Below, piece by piece: positions 1,096 to 48,700 of a stretch of DNA of 64,000 bases. This DNA comes from Octopus vulgaris (Eukaryota), in the NCBI GenBank assembly GCA_951406725.2, contig OX597817.1, positions 104,222,001 to 104,286,000 on the forward strand, given 5' to 3'. A program made the position numbers and the translations under genes. How positions within the stretch are numbered: position 1 is the stretch's first letter; each line of letters starts with the position of its first letter. The notes beneath the pieces were generated by a model. It was not told the origin of the DNA. It ran no database searches and worked only from the letters and a program-made list of their open reading frames with translations.

Positions 1096-2945
1096 CTGAG
1101 TAGGAGTTAATTCGTGCTGGCAGCACTTGTGTCATTTGTCACTTTTACATGTTTGATTTTTTGCTGGGAGTTTTCTCGCGCGAGACATTGTTGAAGTTTC
1201 TGTTGAAATTGTTGTAGCTTGTTTGCCAGTTTTGTTTTGTTGTTCGTTTCCCCCATTTTGGGGCGAAAATTGATTTTCATCCCAATATGGAGGTGGACTC
1301 CATACCAAGCTATGCGGCTGCCGCAGGAGCAGGAAAAAATGCTGTTGCCTTGCTGGAGGTGAAGAAGCTAGAAACTAGCCAAGAGATGTTGAATGAATGT
1401 GGAGAGTACATTCAAAAGAAGTGGACGGCTTTGAAGGTGGGCCCCTCCTAAGGAAAGTGTCGAAGAGAAGCAAAGAAGAACGTTGGTCTATCGTACACAA
1501 TCGGCTACATCACGGAAGATCGAAGTAGCGACGGAAAATGACATAGAGAGTTGCTTGCTATCAATAATGGAGGAAGCAACCTTCATTAATAGAGGAAGGA
1601 AGTTTGGCACGGTGGAGGTACGGTTTACCACCGAGGAGGAGGCAGTGAGGCGCTTGACGACAACGTTAAGGTCGGCAGGCTTGATACTTCTGCCGACCTG
1701 CATGGGAAGAAGAAATGTTAGAGTGCGGATTGGAAGGATCCTATCGGAAATAAAAGAAGTGTGGCCGGTGACAGGCATTATGGCTGCCACTCAGGAGGAC
1801 GCTAAATTGATGCGCGTCGGTAGAACGCAACAAGTGAATTGGTGGGGATATCACCTGGAAGTCTTGCTCCATGTCACCCACCATGACATCGAAGAATTAC
1901 CGTACGAAATTGTCATACCGGAGGAAAATGCGTTGAAGGTAGTTGTTGAGGGAAGACCCAACTGTTACCTATGTGGACGGAGAGGACACATAAAGGTCCA
2001 TTGCCCCGATTATAAGCCGCCCCAGACGGAGAAGACTACGGCGGAGCCCCACACTGAGAAGACAACGGCGGAGCCCCAGACCGAGAAGACTATGGCGGAG
2101 TCCCAGATCGAAAAGACTACGACGGTGCCCCAGAGCGTTGCTGAAGAAGCAACAGAGAAAAAGCAGAAACCAGTAGAGGGAAGTAGTGACGAGAGTGACT
2201 ACATTGTGAAGCACAAAAGAAGGAGGAGTGAGACGAAAGGATCCCCACCAAATGGTACAAACAAGGAGGACAAAACACCCACATATAAAAGACACGAAAA
2301 CCCATTTATGAACATCTCAACCCCATCCACACCACTGAAAAAAAAAAACATCGTAGACAATCCGGACAGGTATACAAAGACACATACACGCGCAGACATA
2401 CATAAGCAGGAAAACACACACGCAGCCAAACCATTCAGGTCCCCACAGAAAACCAAATACACCGCATACACAACAAAAGTGTGAATATACACAAAAGTGT
2501 GAATATAGAAAAGATGTTAACGAAATGGAAGAACATAACAAGAGTAAAACTGCCTGCAGGGGAGTTCCTCCCAATAAAAAGTGCGTCCTACTGGACCTGG
2601 AAAGAAATAAAAATTTTAAAAAGACTTTCGGGTCTGATGTAGACCCCATAGGGCCGGAAGTAGGGTTTGATACGCTGCCTCCTGTCATTGAATATAAGGA
2701 GGTGGAAAGCACTCAAAGCAAGTAAATGTAATTTTAAAACTAAATTGTTTACGATGAACTAGTAAGAAAAAACAATTGTATTAAATGTAACTACTCGAGT
2801 GCGGGGCTCGAGTAGCCATCGCACCCCCACATTCATATATCATCCTTTCATTAATTCATTCGTTTTACTTTTTCCCCGCTGCATGTTTTGTCTGTCCTTG
2901 CGTTGTCCCCTCTGTGTTGGGCCCTTGGTGGCCAAATAAAGAAAT
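1096..2945 (+). mobile_element. ORF1-only (HAL1-like) Tx1/L1-related non-autonomous element
   Basis: T-rich 5' UTR, ATG at 1287 (MEVDSIPSYAAAAG...), frameshifted ORF1 to ~2725, then ~220 bp 3' UTR ending TGTCC...CCCTCTGTG...AATAAAGAAAT. No ORF2 sequence seen. Confidence 0.65.
1287..2725 (+). pseudogene. Tx1/L1-like ORF1 (RRM-like region plus CCHC zinc knuckle), frameshifted
   Basis: ORF 1483..2484 contains GTVEVRFTTEEEA (RRM-like) and CYLCGRRGHIKVHC (CX2CX4HX4C), followed by ~27-bp tandem repeats (QTEKTTAEP) and a basic low-complexity tail. Confidence 0.75.
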
Positions 2946-3116: not shown

Positions 3117-3129
3117 TGGGGACGAGGAT
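3117..3129 (+). promoter_or_regulatory. Primer binding site (tRNA-Ser-like)
   Basis: TGGGGACGAGGAT is one mismatch from TGGCGACGAGGAT, the complement of a tRNA-Ser(GCU) 3' end, and lies between the LTR end and gag. Confidence 0.7.
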
Positions 3130-3173
3130 TCGAAATTCATGCAGGTCAGTTAACAAAATTTTGTGATATAAAG

Positions 3174-4570
3174 TTGCTAATTATGGCAGACCTATTAGCT
3201 TCCATAATACAGTTGAAAAAGCAACAGCAAGAACAGCAACAGGAGTTACAAAATCAACAACTACAGCCACAAGAAAAACAACAGTTAATGGAGCTATGTT
3301 TCAAGAAGTCCGGAAACACTATCAGTTCGTTTTCACCAGACGGTGTATCGAACTCTATAACAGAATTCAGTTGTTTGCAACGTACTTTAAAGGGTACGAA
3401 GAAATCTTCAGGGAAGATTGCAAGTCGTGGACAGATGAGGAAAAAGTAAGACTATTATTACGTAAATTAGCTCCGTCAGAACATGAAAAACGTTGTAATT
3501 TTATACTACCCCAAAAAAACTAGTGAAATTTGTTTTCAGGAAACAGTCGAATTACTTTCAAAAATGTTCAGATTACTATCAAAAATATTCAGTGATAAGA
3601 GTTCCTTATTTAGCACTCGATAAGAGTGTTGGAATCTAGTTAAAAAGAGGATGAAGACTTTATCACATATGCCGTGATCGTAAACAGAATGTGCGAAAGG
3701 TTTAAACTGAATGATCTAACTCCTGATATGTTTAAGTGCCTCATTTTTGTACAAGGTTTGACGCCAAACAAAGATGCGGAAATACGTGCAAGAATTCTCA
3801 CAAAACTTGAACAAGCGAACCAGAGTTTAATCCTGCAAACAATTGCAGAGGAATGTCAAAGAATGGTAAACTTGCGACAGAACGTAAAAAAAGTTGAAGG
3901 GAAGTGCAGGCATGTCGACCGGGAAGGAATAAACAAAAAAAAATTTTAGGACCAAACCCATGCCACAGATGTGGAGGCCTACATTTCAAGAAGGACTGTC
4001 CTTTCAAAATGCGGAAATGTTACAGTTGCCAAAAGGTAGGACACAAGAGCTCACATTGCAGAGCAAAGTTAGGAAGGTCGGAAAATAAAGTTTTCTCCAC
4101 ACGGAAAGTAGAAACGACACCAAGTTACGTGTTTTGGCTGACAATGGATCGGGACATTGAAAATTTGGTGAAATCATGTAGAGGTTGTGCACTAGCAGCC
4201 AAGGTACCACCGGTGTAATACCAAACGTGGTCTGAGACTGATGGCCCGTGGTCCAGGGTACGTATAGATTACGCTGGACAGGTGTACACGAATACTACTT
4301 GATCATTGTTGATAGTTTTACCAAATGTCCGGAAATATGTAGGTGCAGTCAACCAACGCTGAAGGCAACAATAAAGTTCCTGCACGAACCTTTTACTCGA
4401 TACGGTGTTCCGAACACCATAGTGTCGGACAATGGAACACAATTTACAGGATACGAGTTCAAAAATTTCTACAAAATGCATGCAATCAACTACATTTTAC
4501 TCCGCTCTACCACCCGAGATAAAATGGGCAAGCAGAACGATTGATTAGTAGACACTTTTAAGCGAGCCAT
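3174..4570 (+). mobile_element. Ty3/Gypsy (Mag-like) internal region: degenerate gag plus integrase, PR-RT-RNaseH deleted
   Basis: gag-like WTDEEKVRLLLRKL and two Zn knuckles CHRCGGLHFKKDCPFKMRKCYSCQKVGHKSSHC, followed directly by integrase SYVFWLTMDRDIENLVKSCRGC, YLIIVDSFTK and YGVPNTIVSDNGTQF. Several frameshifts. Confidence 0.9.
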
Positions 4571-4753
4571 ATAGTACACAATTCCTAAAACCATATAATA
4601 CACAATTTAAATTTATTTACTTCTGTATTATTCTGACAACGCTCGCGCACTAAATTTGAATCCATAAGGTGTAAAGATGGAGCTGTCTTGCGCATGTGTT
4701 TGCCTCGCGTTTTCGGTACGTATTACTGCTACATAATTATGCATTCTTAAGCG

Positions 4754-4823
4754 ATCCTACTGACGAGATACAGATACCAAATTAATTTATTTGGTCATTA
4801 ATAGCGAAATTCAAGTATAGGAT
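4754..4823 (+). ncRNA. Type I hammerhead ribozyme motif
   Basis: Stem I ATCCTA/TAGGAT; core CTGACGA; long stem II closed by G-C with inner hairpin ACCAAAT-TAATTT-ATTTGGT; GAAA; minimal stem III; GTA cleavage triplet at 4815-4817. Confidence 0.65.
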
Positions 4824-5023
4824 TAACTAATTTTTTATTCACTCTAGTGCCTATTAGCAGCGTGCCTTAAAAATTCCTTTTGTTCGTGGTTTGAGGTTAA
4901 CTGCCCTTTTTATCATGTAAGAAGTCCTGTCAAGTGTCTTCTTTCCGTGTATAAATCTTTATAAACTCTTATATATGCATGTATGTATATATGTATGTAT
5001 ACATACATACATACATACATACA

Positions 5024-5058
<35 letters not shown>

Positions 5059-5506
5059 GTATGTATGTATGTACAGGTATATGTATATATAACATATTTA
5101 ACATACGTCTATCGTTTAAAAGTCAGAAGCTAATGTTCTTCGTACGAGAAAATCCCTTTGTAGACGTATTGTGTTAAGAAGAGCAATATATTTCAGAGCA
5201 AGGTCGGAGGAAATCGCACTGGAAGTGACTGTGAGAGCGACACATAAGTATTTCCCCGTTGTTGTAGCTTGTCAACGTCACATGTTTGTCTCTCTCCGAA
5301 GAGAGGGCGAATGTATATAGAGATAGTGCATAAACAATGCATTGGTTTGCAATGGCGTCGCATGAGCAAAATAAAACTAGCACGATGCAAAAGAAGCAAG
5401 CAGCTGCAAAGTAGAATCTACATCCTATATAGCATAACGCGTATCGTTACAAAACTTTATACAGATAAAAATTTCATTCAAGAGCTACTTCTGTTACGTA
5501 ATTAGA

Positions 5507-22753: not shown

Positions 22754-23610
22754 GATGGGCTACAGCAAATATTCTGCTCAATACCACAGATTTGCTTGTC
22801 AGTTGTTTGACCTTAACCAGTTGAGCATGTCCCTTAGTGGCTGATGATATGTGCATCTCTGATCACGAGCAGAAGTAGTGGGGTAGTATCATAGCCATGT
22901 GTTGAGAGGGATTCTTTGGGTTTGAATAATTCACCTCTGGAAACATAGGTGTTTCGTTCAACATCCTTAAACAACCCTTACTCAGGGACCTTTTGAGCAG
23001 GATGGGTTACTCGACCAGAAGAAAATTCTAACTGGGCCCCACCTACAAGGTCATGTGCTGTTTATCTTGATATGAGATCACCATGTCGCGCATATATGGT
23101 TGTGATGCATGTGCCTGGTGTACCCTTATCAGACGGGTAGTCATGATGGGTATACTGGGCTTCGTATATTTTTACCCCAGTGTCACTTTGATGGCATGCA
23201 CTGCTCTCTCACTCAGTAATAATAATGATAATACAGTCACTCCCGTCGAAGATGACGTATACGTGTTAAGCTTTATTGCCGAACGTCCTGCACAAATGAT
23301 TTGGTTATTGTGATCAAATGCATGTGCTATGCATTAGCTCACTCTCTCCATCGACTCGACGGTGTACCATACGTCAGGTGTCGAAATGATCGCAGAGCAA
23401 CGTGAGATGAAGTGTTTTGCTCAAGAACACAACACATCACCCGGTCTAGGAACTGAAATCACGATCTAGCGATTGTGAATGCAACACCCCAACCACTAAG
23501 CCATGCGTCTAATAATAATAGTAAGAAGAATAGTAATAATAATGTGGGTATACTGGGTTCGTATATTTTAACCCAGCGTCACTTTGATTACATGTACTGC
23601 TCTCTCACTC

Positions 23611-24582: not shown

Positions 24583-24804
24583 TCAATATAGGGTGGCAAA
24601 AAAATTTTTGTAGAATTCTTTTGCCACCAGCGGCCTAGTAGGAAAAAATTAAAATAGTCATAGACCATTTTTAAGTTCAACATCAACAATAAAGGAACGG
24701 CCATAATAGGCCATTCACCCACTAGAAATAACAGCCAAAGCTTCAACCGCAAATAAAAGTTAATTCAGTAAACCAGGAGAAAATTTAAAAACATTTACCC
24801 TGTA

Positions 24805-24911
24805 ATTTCTTATACGATATACCGTTTCATCTGCTGATTAATGGCAAACTAACCTGATTAAATTAAATCAAGCCAATCCTCCACAGGCCCTCAGATTCGT
24901 CAGTAAGAAAT
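24805..24911 (-). ncRNA. Type I hammerhead ribozyme motif (mirror copy)
   Basis: Reverse-complement copy of 24929-25035 in the left arm, with the core intact. Confidence 0.75.
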
Positions 24912-24928
24912 AGAAATAGCTATGGGCT

Positions 24929-25035
24929 ATTTCTTACTGACGAATCTGAGGGCCTGTGGAGGATTGGCTTGATTTAATTTAATCAAGTTAGTTTGCCATT
25001 AATCAGCAGATGAAACGGTATATCGTATAAGAAAT
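24929..25035 (+). ncRNA. Type I hammerhead ribozyme motif
   Basis: Stem I ATTTCTTA/TAAGAAAT; CTGACGA; stem II ATCTG/CAGAT with a ~58-nt insert; GAAAC-GGTATATC-GTA; predicted cleavage after 25027. Confidence 0.75.
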
Positions 25036-25123
25036 TACAGGGTAAATGTTTTTAAATTTTCTCCTGGTTTACTGAATTAACTTTATTTGCGGTTGAAGCT
25101 TTGGCTGTTATTTCTAGTGGGTG

Positions 25124-35215: not shown

Positions 35216-36857
<1,642 letters not shown>

Positions 36858-45751: not shown

Positions 45752-48700
45752 ATTCTTTATTACGATAAAAAAAAATATCATACATAGAGGGGAGATCACA
45801 GGACATTACAAACAAATAGTACGTTTATGAGTTCATTTTAGAAGTGTGTTTTTTTAAATATGATGATTATTAACTTCAAAATTTAACACATTTTACAAAT
45901 TTACACTTATATTTTAAGAAATTTTCAGTTTTACAACTTTTACCCTTGGTCATGGAGCCCAACGACTACAACATGCTTTTTACTAAGAATGAGATTAAGT
46001 AGGGTCATTCACATCCAACTTCCTTGCTACATCCTTCCATCTTTTCTCGAATATACTTCGCGACAGGTGTCTCCTCTCCAGCCCTATCTTGCTCTTCAGA
46101 TAATATCTGAAGTAATATAGCAACCCAAGGACAGAGATAAAAGTTTCCGTCGCAACACCTTTCATTCTAGTTCTCCATAAACACTCTTTCAACACTGCGA
46201 CTGTATATAAAAAACATACCTCACCTTCCTTTGATAGTCCGGGTGGCGGTACAATATTGATCATGGACTCAGCGGATAGCTGTACTCTTCCTTGGTGCGA
46301 CAACACGTGTTCTACGTAAATTATCAAGGCAGAAAGCTCCGGGCACTGTACAAGAGCGTGCAGAACGGCTTCATCGTCGTGTCCGCACCTTGGGCATGTC
46401 GGTAGCACAGACATTCCATTATCGTCTTGCCGCTCCAGCTGCCGAGCCCCAAGCCGATGGACTTGTCCTTGTTAATTTTTGCCCCTTCCACCACCTCGTA
46501 TCCTTTGATTGCATCCTCTACACAAGGTAGCTGATCTTCATCGGGCAGGGTGATGGTGACGTCATCCGCATATGCAGAAACAGACTTACCACTCTCCAAC
46601 CTCCGCAGCAATGGCTCATGAGCCAGTACATATAGAAGCGGAGACAGGGGACACGCTTGACGAACTGAGCGCTTGATCCCAAGTGGCACCGACAGGTAAC
46701 CGTTTATCTGGACTGCGGGTTTGATGCCGCCATAAATGGCAGTGATCCAACCACGGAAGTCTGGGCCTAGCCCAGCCGCCTCGAAGACCGCCGCCAGGTA
46801 CTGGTGGTCTACCCTATCAAAAGTTTTACTTTGGTCTAAATGGACCAGTGCCCCACCTTTACCAGATAATTTACCAACCCTGTCTAGGGTGTAGTGCAAG
46901 AGATGGAGATTGTCCTGGATTGACCTGCCTGGGATGGCGCATGTCTGCGCTCTCCCAACAAGTTTCTCCGCGACACCCGCCAGCCTTTTCGCTAGCACCT
47001 TCGCCAAACTCTTTAACTCTACATTAAGTAGACTTATGGGCCTAAAATTACTAATATGGTCTCCCTTGCTCATGTCTTTTCTGGTCAACGTCATCACTCC
47101 CCGACTCACAGAGCTGGGAATCCTCCCATTCTGCTGCCAGTTTGTGTAGACGCAGGCCAACAAGTGTCCGACCAAGTTTGGTATACTACGATAAAATTCA
47201 TAGGGCAGACTATCCAGCCCCGGCGACATGTCCCTGGAGCACTCAGCCAGCACCTCTTCAACCTCCGTAGCTGTTATAAGCCCTTCAGAACATTCCGCCT
47301 CCGTGCGAAGAGTCGCGGCCCACCGGCGAGGAAGTCCTTTAGGGACTCCCCACGGTCCATCCCGCCGCTCTCCCCGAACAACCGGGCGAAATGCTGGTGA
47401 AAAGCCTTCTGCATCTCCTCCTATACTTCAATCGTACGCCCATGTTCGTCGTTAAAGACTTGGTAGAAGCACGTCTGCCTCTCCGACTCTCCACACGACG
47501 TGCCGATCCGGCAACGTTAATACTCTCTCTCTCTCCTCACCGCACGAAACTTAGCTCTGACTCTAAACCCTTCCTCTTCGGCTTTGAGATGACGGAAAAA
47601 AACCACTTTCGTTGCCATCAATCTCGATGCAGAGCAAGATTCTATGGCCTCATTTAATTCCTTAATTAGGCTCCCTTCTATTCTAGTCTTCTCTAGACTG
47701 AGCTGTTAACTAAATCTAACAGACTCAGAACGAATGGCTCGCTTGAGGGCATGCCAACACCTATTATTAATGATGGCGCCGGTTAATACACTCAGCAATA
47801 ACTCCTTAACTCGGGCACGGACGGTTTTAGAAGTCAAAATAATAGACTTGTTCATCTTCCAGTACTCTGATCTATGCCTATGACACTTATCTAGGGTACA
47901 CCTCACGCGTCACAAACTTGTGATCCGTATAAGGGATATAACAAAAGCGTGGACAATTAACGTCTTCCTAACTCTATCCCTAACGAATATCGTATCTAAA
48001 TAAGATCTGAGTGAACCGTCGTTATTAGGCCACATCCACTGTGGAACCAGCGATTCATCCAGCCTGTATTTGTCCACTAGATTATAGCTTCCTAGGGTTT
48101 CCTCTTCTATCAGTCGAGCCAACACTATTCACCCGTGCGTCGAGAATAATGTTAAAGTCTCCTAGTACAACTAGAGATTTTGACGTCACTAAGAAGTTCT
48201 CCAGGTCCCAGAAAAAAACAGCTTGTCTACACTCCTTGGGAGCGTAGACAGCCACCAACTTGAAGGACGACTGTTTACTTACGTGTGTCACACCCAAGAC
48301 GACCAGCCTACCTTCTGGGTCCAGAAAGACTGTACTTACCTGTACGTCCAAGTTTTTCCTGAATAAGACCACTACGCCCCGCCTCCCCGTCTCCCCACCG
48401 ACTATCATCAGAGCTCACTTCAAAGCTCGAGTGTACAAAGCAACAAAAGACATTCCACCTTTGTACACTCGAGCTTTGAAGTGAACTGATGATTATTGAT
48501 AACACATCATTTCTTTCATTGAAAGATATAATTTTTTCTTGCGTCTTGGAGTGGGGTTTGGTGAAGGATTTTAACAAGGGGGTGGTGTGGTGTGTTTTTC
48601 GTATGTGTCTGTAGTATGCTTGCTTGTTTTCTTTGTATGGGGAGGAGCGTCCGTGGCTTGGGCCTTTTTTCTCTTGTGTGATGTAACCATGGTAAAATCC

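What the first reader, a model, noticed from the sequence alone, without database searches (positions are those of the whole stretch)
4754..4823. Second hammerhead with the same extended stem II architecture (candidate new variant family)
Seen: stem I differs in sequence from the 24.9-kb motif (AUCCUA/UAGGAU vs AUUUCUUA/UAAGAAAU) but the CUGACGA...GAAA...GUA core is the same. Both carry a long stem II with a hairpin capped by UAAUUU (ACCAAAU/AUUUGGU vs CUUGAUU/AAUCAAG) followed by CAUUAAU shortly before GAAA. Different sequence with conserved pairing suggests selection on structure. Established: described PLE hammerheads usually have short stems II. Inference: the extra domain may supply tertiary contacts or a protein-binding site.
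Basis: partly seen in the sequence, partly recalled or inferred. Interest (0 to 1): 0.75.

Follow-up and report, generated by a model that had tools for sequence, protein, structure and literature searches.

The report
Long-armed hammerhead ribozyme in jumping repeats
This is a worn-out copy of a likely self-cutting RNA (a hammerhead ribozyme) in a protein-free jumping repeat, with an extra hairpin spliced into the loop that normally braces the fold; such long-armed forms are likely present in tens of thousands of copies in this animal genome, and the one published search pattern I could read caps the arm too short to find them.

Summary
The motif is real. It is a type I hammerhead (predicted cut 4817/4818) in a 5'-truncated copy (4579-4974) of an old, non-coding, Penelope-type repeat with a ~486-bp unit. 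Across 96 copies in 7 subfamilies, helix I, proximal helix II and the distal extension all show compensatory changes. Rfam aligns it as canonical loop 2 (CA/AAUA) opened by a 27-nt hairpin. The 24.9-kb motif is not an independent convergence: its 3' flank is remotely homologous. The URNUUU cap marks this clan (56 of 75 copies, against 1 of 82 outside). It sits 17-32 nt into helix II, so it is unlikely to be a fixed catalytic contact, and other families keep the same proximal loop under other caps. The likely tertiary contact is the proximal C·A/R·R loop with U1.7 (suggestive, p=0.09). This copy is probably dead: its helix III can no longer dimerise. Spacers of 49-78 nt are about as frequent as short ones (58,603 vs 53,097 raw matches). 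No cleavage has been shown. The scan noted the 492-bp long-stem family before. Verdict: a new variant of a known kind.

The parts
4579..4974 (+). 5'-truncated copy (unit positions 99-483 of 486) of non-coding Penelope-type repeat 'family A'
   Evidence: blastn to the tandem unit of L028, 78% over 405 nt; 62 matches from 40 scored of 540 candidates, 76-92% identity apart from the self match
4748..4753 (+). 5' strand of helix Ib and loop I (family majority UUAG-CG; this copy has one substitution)
   Evidence: 0 of 6 columns vary among 7 subfamily majorities; pairing never covaries convincingly
4754..4759 (+). helix I 5' strand (6 bp with 4818-4823)
   Evidence: all 6 pairs show double-sided changes among copies; 8 of 8 variant subfamily states still pair
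4760..4766 (+). catalytic core CUGACGA
   Evidence: sequence; Rfam RF00163 alignment
4767..4772 (+). helix IIa 5' strand (C>A at 4768 breaks one pair) and CA side of the 2x2 internal loop
4773..4799 (+). 27-nt hairpin inserted into loop 2: GAU/AUU, bulged distal stem, UAAUUU cap at 4783-4788
   Evidence: Rfam treats it as a 27-nt insert; MFE; double-sided changes at 2 distal pairs between subfamilies
4800..4805 (+). AA side of the internal loop and helix IIa 3' strand (the AAUA of canonical loop 2)
4806..4817 (+). GAAA core, short helix III (palindromic CUCGAG in the family, damaged here) and GUA; predicted cut after 4817
   Evidence: self-dimer energy 0 here vs -12.7 kcal/mol in intact copy L002
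4818..4830 (+). helix I 3' strand, U1.7-A-A (4824-4826) and helix Ib 3' strand
   Evidence: UAACU does not vary in 7 of 7 subfamily majorities
4975..5100 (.). TA/TACA microsatellite at the element's 3' end (likely insertion target)
   Evidence: same context in L253 and L217
24929..25035 (+). family B hammerhead (68-nt helix II), remote homologue; 492-bp tandem family
24805..24911 (-). second family B hammerhead in the inverted arm (arms 24756-24913 and 24927-25084, 99% complementary)

Best explanation
The stretch is a decayed genomic copy of a type I hammerhead in a non-coding repeat that is likely copied by Penelope-like retrotransposon enzymes; its intact relatives are predicted to cut their own tandem transcripts, likely as dimers, with a hairpin grafted into loop 2. 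Shown: the core, a 6-bp helix I, a 3-4-bp helix IIa, a 2x2 C(R)/(R)A internal loop, a bulged distal stem, a URNUUU cap and a short palindromic helix III; tandem units and two-armed insertions in (TA)n. Inferred: two neighbouring ribozymes pair their palindromic helices III and cut after NUH. The internal loop sits where canonical loop 2 sits and keeps its 5' C and 3' A, so it would make the usual contact with U1.7 and the helix I loop. The distal hairpin is under selection for pairing, and its cap is a clan signature whose likeliest job lies outside catalysis (a binding site or a folding guard). Selection acted on the active master lineages; genomic copies, this one included, then decayed.
For: Rfam aligns CA...[27 nt]...AAUA onto the consensus loop CAAAUA. 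In 96 copies, 85.4% of cells pair and the covariation score is 0.257, against 0.143 for shuffles and 0.053-0.074 for slid partners. Among 7 subfamily majorities, stems differ 33-64% yet stay paired, flanks differ 14-18%, and loop I, UAACU, the internal-loop module and the 16-nt apical hairpin differ 0-10%. RNAalifold on those 7 rows recovers helices Ib, I, IIa and the extension (-19.1 kcal/mol). The module pattern has 1,936 matches vs 2 control, including young 534-bp tandem family D with another cap. A profile of the 3' flank alone pulls in families C (E 7.7e-5) and B (E 7.7e-7 in the next round); the reversed control gives 0 hits. The cap is in 14 of 14 clan representatives, 7 of which came from searches that did not ask for it. 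Literature: palindromic helix III and dimer cleavage (PMC4209133, PMC7229834), U1.7 Hoogsteen pair with a loop-2 A (PMC11875169), retrozymes as PLE pLTR derivatives (10.64898/2026.07.22.740005).
Against: No cleavage data. The link between the module and U1.7 across families is not significant (10 of 12 vs 16 of 30, Fisher p=0.09). RNAalifold on all 96 decayed copies returned no pairs, and 'pairs with a change on both sides' did not exceed shuffles (13 vs 13.9). Subfamilies are related, so the counts are not independent events, and the groups were drawn by hand from a tree. The core-proximal pair is not Watson-Crick in 5 of 7 subfamily majorities. Helix Ib and the GAU/AUU pairs hardly vary, so they are untested. 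No coding partner was found for family A: the two copies inspected beside PLE ORFs are separate insertions into the trailing (TA)n. In Xenopus 8 of 9 predicted retrozymes did not cleave in vitro (10.64898/2026.07.22.740005), and hammerhead cleavage was not needed for PLE insertion in vitro (PMC11167929).
Confidence: 0.62

Rival explanations
1. The UAAUUU cap itself supplies a tertiary contact needed for cleavage.
For: The cap is strongly conserved in the clan: 56 of 75 vs 1 of 82; 1 of 16 apical columns varies vs 63 of 205 flank columns.
Against: The cap lies 17, 19, 24-30 or 32 nt into helix II in different clan families, and no complementary partner sits at a constant place within -120..+160 nt in 14 representatives. 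Families with the same proximal loop use unrelated caps.
Confidence: 0.1
2. The hairpin is a recognition site for the Penelope RT/endonuclease or a host protein, so the ribozyme doubles as the cis signal by which these protein-free repeats get copied or switch cleavage on or off. This is compatible with the best explanation.
For: The constraint is on sequence and is independent of distance from the core. The D-type families conserve their own apical word. A young 899-aa PLE-like element also carries a 55-nt helix II in each 3,624-bp repeat.
Against: No binding data. The cognate coding element of this clan was not found. In the anole PLE the inferred protein-binding region lies in the first 172 nt of the ORF (PMC11167929, passages).
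Confidence: 0.25
3. The extension is neutral: an AT-rich fold-back expansion of loop 2, tolerated because helix II points away from the core and shared only through ancestry.
For: Helix II varies freely from 25 to over 70 nt across families. A and B are homologous. AT-rich near-palindromes arise easily.
Against: Double-sided compensations occur in the distal stem. The cap survives where flank identity falls to 0.64-0.70, close to the shuffled baseline of 0.62.
Confidence: 0.2
4. The long helix II weakens or blocks cleavage, and these motifs act mainly as structural or dimerisation elements.
For: PLE hammerheads cleave poorly in vitro (PMC4209133). The core-proximal pair is mismatched in several subfamilies. 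AAAUUAAUUU is self-complementary in family A.
Against: The core varies only at N7 and at the NUH base across subfamilies. Cap variants UACUUU and UAUUUU break the palindrome.
Confidence: 0.1

Closest known systems
Canonical metazoan type I hammerhead (S. mansoni Sm-alpha type; Rfam RF00163 Hammerhead_1; described in PMC4209133 and PMC6155905)
   Same: Core, 6-bp helix I followed by U1.7 and a putative internal loop, about 4-bp helix II, loop-2 letters CA..AAUA, short palindromic helix III.
   Different: Loop 2 is opened into a 2x2 internal loop by a 27-nt hairpin. The score of 24.3 bits is under the gathering score of 34.
Minimal and variant PLE hammerheads (Cervera and de la Pena 2014, PMC4209133)
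   Same: Type I, palindromic helix III, in pLTR-like units, single copies and opposite-strand pairs, U-rich 3' flank.
   Different: Their helix II is a plain 3-8-bp hairpin, and their descriptor allows at most 7 bp plus a 10-nt loop. Here it is 39-68 nt with internal loops, and helix I is the canonical 6 bp.
Animal non-LTR retrozymes (PMC7229834; bioRxiv 10.64898/2026.07.22.740005)
   Same: Non-coding, low-GC tandem units each with a type I hammerhead; monomers dispersed; PLEs in the same genome.
   Different: Units of 460-535 bp lie above the 170-400 nt of the first paper but within the range of the second. Long helix II is not mentioned in what I read. Circular RNA was not shown here.
Atypical type III hammerheads of toad and termite HDV-like RNAs (PMC7936874, passages)
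   Same: A terminal loop turned into an internal loop and capped by an extra hairpin of about 20 nt, with the internal loop keeping the tertiary contact.
   Different: There the extension is on helix I, the ribozyme is type III, and the contact is a GCCR/YGGC pseudoknot.
'Long helix II' type I hammerheads of chrysoviruses and megabirnaviruses (PMC13725137, passages)
   Same: Type I with a longer than usual helix II; the chrysoviral ones cleave efficiently.
   Different: Only 6-8 bp, a long helix III, no loop-loop contact, viral UTRs.

Membership tests
Type I hammerhead ribozyme (RF00163) | CUGANGA / GAAA / NUH core in a three-way junction, helix I open | tested here: met
Type I hammerhead ribozyme (RF00163) | Covarying helices I and II | tested here: met
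   helix III does not vary, so it is untested
Type I hammerhead ribozyme (RF00163) | Score at or above the Rfam gathering threshold | tested here: not met
   24.3 vs 34 bits; no hammerhead match in 8 related loci
Type I hammerhead ribozyme (RF00163) | Self-cleavage | not testable with these tools
   needs a bench assay
Canonical (tertiary-stabilised) metazoan type I hammerhead | 6-bp helix I, about 4-bp helix II, short palindromic helix III | tested here: met
   family majorities; palindrome damaged in the window copy
Canonical (tertiary-stabilised) metazoan type I hammerhead | Terminal loop 2 of 4-6 nt | tested here: not met
   an internal loop plus a 27-nt hairpin instead
Canonical (tertiary-stabilised) metazoan type I hammerhead | Conserved loop 1 / loop 2 contact (U1.7 with a loop-2 A) | tested here: inconclusive
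   invariant within family A; across families 10 of 12 vs 16 of 30, p=0.09
Minimal PLE hammerhead (min-HHR) | Helix II 3-7 bp with a 3-10-nt loop; no loop 3 | tested here: not met
   descriptor in the PMC4209133 supplement vs a 39-nt helix II and CUCGAG helix III
Non-LTR retrozyme | Non-coding tandem unit with a type I hammerhead per unit | tested here: met
   A: periods of 485 (L028) and 460 (L253); B 492, C 474, D 534; the window copy is a truncated monomer
Non-LTR retrozyme | Expressed as linear and circular monomer RNA | tested here: inconclusive
   no run on record as RNA; contigs cannot tell circles from DNA arrays
Penelope-like element mobilisation | 5' truncation, partial tandems, inverted 5' arm, microsatellite targets | tested here: met
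   hallmarks from PMC8557442 passages
Penelope-like element mobilisation | Shared pLTR with an RT + GIY-YIG ORF | tested here: inconclusive
   PLE ORFs exist, but none was found continuous with family A, B, C or D; the search was limited to fetched loci

The most novel reading that the evidence does not exclude
A large, descriptor-invisible class of animal hammerheads (at least 25,000 copies, dozens of families in one genome) has converted loop 2 into an internal loop and uses the freed tip as a clan-specific docking hairpin. That hairpin recruits the matching Penelope reverse transcriptase or a host factor, so that one RNA element both cuts the transcript and licenses its copying: a natural protein-gated ribozyme.
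Probability: 0.2. Interest if true: 0.78.

Novelty: new variant of a known kind. Interest (0 to 1): 0.5.

Why it matters
Published counts of animal hammerheads rest partly on descriptors that cap helix II at about 24 nt. In this genome roughly half of the core matches have a much longer one, so ribozyme censuses may be well short. The role of hammerheads in Penelope-like elements is an open question. Here natural variation separates a proximal module (constant position) from a cap (constant sequence, moving position), and young families allow a direct mutational test of which part serves catalysis and which serves copying. Natural ribozymes that tolerate large inserts in loop 2 would also be ready scaffolds for engineered switches.

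Tried and rejected
Rfam on the whole window listed no hammerhead among the 150 of 204 rows shown. The repeat finder was swamped by microsatellites. RNAalifold on all 96 copies gave no pairs. RNA evidence: no RNA holder was listed for the family B unit. A 523-nt contig closing on itself (492+31) in run X1 fits a circle or a DNA array equally. Splice-donor idea for D-type helix II: no joint in 4 contig sets, which cannot show absence. The module pattern in metagenome contigs gave 35 matches, 0 of 35 with at least 5 of 6 helix I pairs, so all chance. A GG(loop I)-CC(helix II) pairing in B, C, F and L178-type families was seen by eye, but offsets vary and it was not tested. No cap partner by complementarity at a constant place. 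L109/L136, L217, L253 and L101 first looked like pLTRs of adjacent PLE ORFs; the three read base by base (L253, L217, L101) are separated by (TA)n, and L109/L136 lies inverted. A genome-wide covariance-model count and R-scape could not be run. Rows dropped: 2 of 98 regex hits that were not family A. Lunse et al. 2017 was not held; Arkhipova et al. 2017 was not seen.

Full report
Observation. The window reads AUCCUA-CUGACGA-[39 nt]-GAAA-UUCAA-GUA-UAGGAU at 4754-4823. A scan of both strands for core words with at least 5 helix I pairs and at least 2 helix III pairs gave 4 hits: this one, two head-to-head copies at 24937 (+) and 24903 (-), and a weak one at 22841. Rfam Hammerhead_1 matches exactly 4754-4823 when 181 nt are searched (24.3 bits, gathering 34). 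It aligns CA and AAUA onto the consensus loop CAAAUA with the 27 nt between them as an insert.

The element. The genome is 2.8 Gb and microsatellite-rich; that it is an animal genome is my inference. A DNA search with 4500-4960 returned 62 matches from 40 scored of 540 candidates, many in opposite-strand pairs. Locus L028 holds a tandem with a 485-bp period. The window copy covers unit positions 99-483 at 4579-4974 and ends in a TA/TACA microsatellite. I saw no coding frame in the unit. The 24.9-kb family forms 492-bp arrays arranged head to head; relatives form 474-bp and 534-bp arrays. Truncation, partial tandems, an inverted arm and microsatellite targets are the PLE hallmarks given in PMC8557442 (passages). 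PLE ORFs with RT and GIY-YIG are present (781 aa). Where family A or C copies lie beside such ORFs, the three cases read base by base are separated by (TA)n, so I treat these families as non-autonomous.

Covariation. I gathered 98 regex hits from the fetched loci, dropped 2 that were not family A, aligned 96 and grouped them by hand into 7 subfamilies from a tree. Of the 168 CUCGAG-type matches, 100 were listed; 30 came as loci and I fetched 40 more chosen by eye. Among subfamily majorities, all 8 variant states in helix I pair, 3 of 3 in helix IIa beyond the first position pair, and 3 of 5 in the distal stem pair as double-sided changes (the other 2 pair after a one-base bulge shift). On all copies 85.4% of cells pair; the covariation score is 0.257 vs 0.143 for shuffles and at most 0.074 for slid partners; the count of pairs with a double change did not beat shuffles. 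RNAalifold found nothing on the 96 decayed copies but recovered helices Ib, I, IIa and the extension on the 7 majority rows. Between subfamilies the flanks differ 14-18% and the stems 33-64%, while loop I (0%), UAACU (0%), the CRRAU/AUURAU module (8-10%) and the 16-nt apical hairpin (1.8%) are held. The 29 BLAST-found copies depart from their majorities at 4-18% in every region, core included, as expected for decay after insertion, and 8 of 29 remain intact. The window copy has lost a helix IIa pair (helix II -6.4 vs -10.5 kcal/mol) and its helix III palindrome (self-dimer 0 vs -12.7).

Relation to the 24.9-kb motif. A profile built only from the 3' flank of family A, searched against 177 distinct flanks, hit 70 in round one, including families with other helix II sequences and family C (E 7.7e-5). 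It hit family B in round two (E 7.7e-7) and settled at 77-78; reversed flanks gave 0. So A and B are one clan. U[URNUUU]A is found in 14 of 14 clan representatives and 56 of 75 clan copies, against 1 of 82 outside (CUCGAG-type copies left out of the outside set). B and C were found by a pattern that asked for the cap, but 7 other representatives were not. Flank identity to A1 for the distant families is 0.64-0.70 against a shuffled 0.62. The cap starts 17 to 32 nt into helix II, and no complementary partner lies at a constant place.

What is conserved outside the clan. Families not linked by flank (D, L074, L295, L293, L306, L165, L296, L082+, L159) keep a 3-5-bp stem, a C-R/R-A loop and RAY/RUU, under GUAAAA, GNRA, UCAU or CUUGU caps. 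The module pattern has 1,936 matches vs 2 control. Most have U at 1.7, the residue that pairs with a loop-2 A in solved hammerheads (PMC11875169, passages). With a fixed rule the association was 10 of 12 vs 16 of 30, p=0.09, so it is suggestive only.

How common. Core patterns with a 4-nt helix III centre: spacer 8-30, 15,344 vs 1,196 control; spacer 31-48, 7,796 vs 1,002. With a 4-8-nt centre: spacer 8-30, 53,097 vs 5,470; spacer 49-78, 58,603 vs 6,994. These are raw matches. In the first 30 loci of each long class, 13 of 30 had at least 5 of 6 helix I pairs against a null of 3.7%, which implies roughly 25,000 for the 49-78 class (an extrapolation from the start of one contig). A young element with an 899-aa ORF in 3,624-bp tandems carries a 55-nt helix II in each repeat. 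Pfam gave it no hit and it matches the 781-aa PLE only weakly over the RT motifs (E 0.003), so its PLE status rests on motifs I recognise from memory and on its layout.

Mechanism. Shown: the anatomy, covariation, homology and decay above. Inferred: tandem transcripts, dimer formation through helix III, cleavage after NUH, a canonical-type contact from the internal loop, copying by PLE enzymes in trans, and a non-catalytic role for the cap. RNA data did not bear on this.

Literature seen. PMC4209133: main text parts 1-2 of 4, supplement file 2 parts 1-2 of 3 and passages of part 3; its Fig. S3 representatives have helix II of 3-8 bp and the descriptor allows 7 bp plus a 10-nt loop. bioRxiv 10.64898/2026.07.22.740005: parts 1-3 of 5. 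PMC7229834: passages and sections 13-14. Passages only: PMC8557442, PMC3088659, PMC6765202, PMC6155905, PMC13725137, PMC11167929, PMC11875169, PMC7936874. Nine searches showed no description of retroelement hammerheads with a 30-80-nt helix II. The nearest precedents are a mirror-image extension on helix I (PMC7936874) and 6-8-bp viral helices II (PMC13725137). Lunse et al. 2017 was not held and Arkhipova et al. 2017 was not seen; either may hold such variants. Earlier AI notes of this scan describe the 492-bp long-stem family; my look-ups by sequence and by words found none on family A.

Verdict. A real but probably dead copy of a new variant of a known kind. Interest 0.5.

Noticed in passing
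L063, L062, L074, L295-L300, L304, L310 (helix II of D-type families): A splice-donor-like word (GTRAGT or GCAAGT) lies in helix II in 14 of 24 hand-picked D-type copies, followed by an AG-poor U-rich tract after the cut site. It also fits a GNRA loop. No splice joint in 4 contig sets.
   Followed up: partly
L417 (G000:C1:119513500-119523400), L418, L419: Young tandem element, period 3,624 bp, with an 899-aa ORF bearing RT-like and GIY-YIG-like motifs but no Pfam hit; each repeat has a hammerhead with a 55-nt helix II.
   Followed up: partly
L138-L141: Young PLE with intact 781-aa RT + GIY-YIG ORFs in many copies; my filter found no canonical hammerhead next to the ORF.
   Followed up: partly
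window 24756-25084: Two 5'-truncated family B arms, 99% complementary and 13 nt apart, each with an intact hammerhead.
   Followed up: yes
B, C, F and L178-type families: A CC/AA internal loop in helix II and GG in the 5' strand of loop I occur together at similar distances from the core; a possible loop-loop pairing.
   Followed up: no
window 3117-4544: Broken Ty3/Gypsy-like gag and integrase fragments (zinc knuckle, integrase-like frames; recognised from memory) directly upstream of the element.
   Followed up: no
window 1435-2725, 35385-36494, 45995-48414: Fragments of other retroelements: a gag-like zinc-knuckle ORF and LINE-type RT/endonuclease remnants (labels from memory).
   Followed up: no
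G000:C1:3630032-3630187 and similar pairs: Two different hammerhead-core motifs directly adjacent on the same strand, seen at three loci.
   Followed up: no
window 22841: Weak core match with a 92-nt spacer; a similar sequence appears at L259.
   Followed up: no
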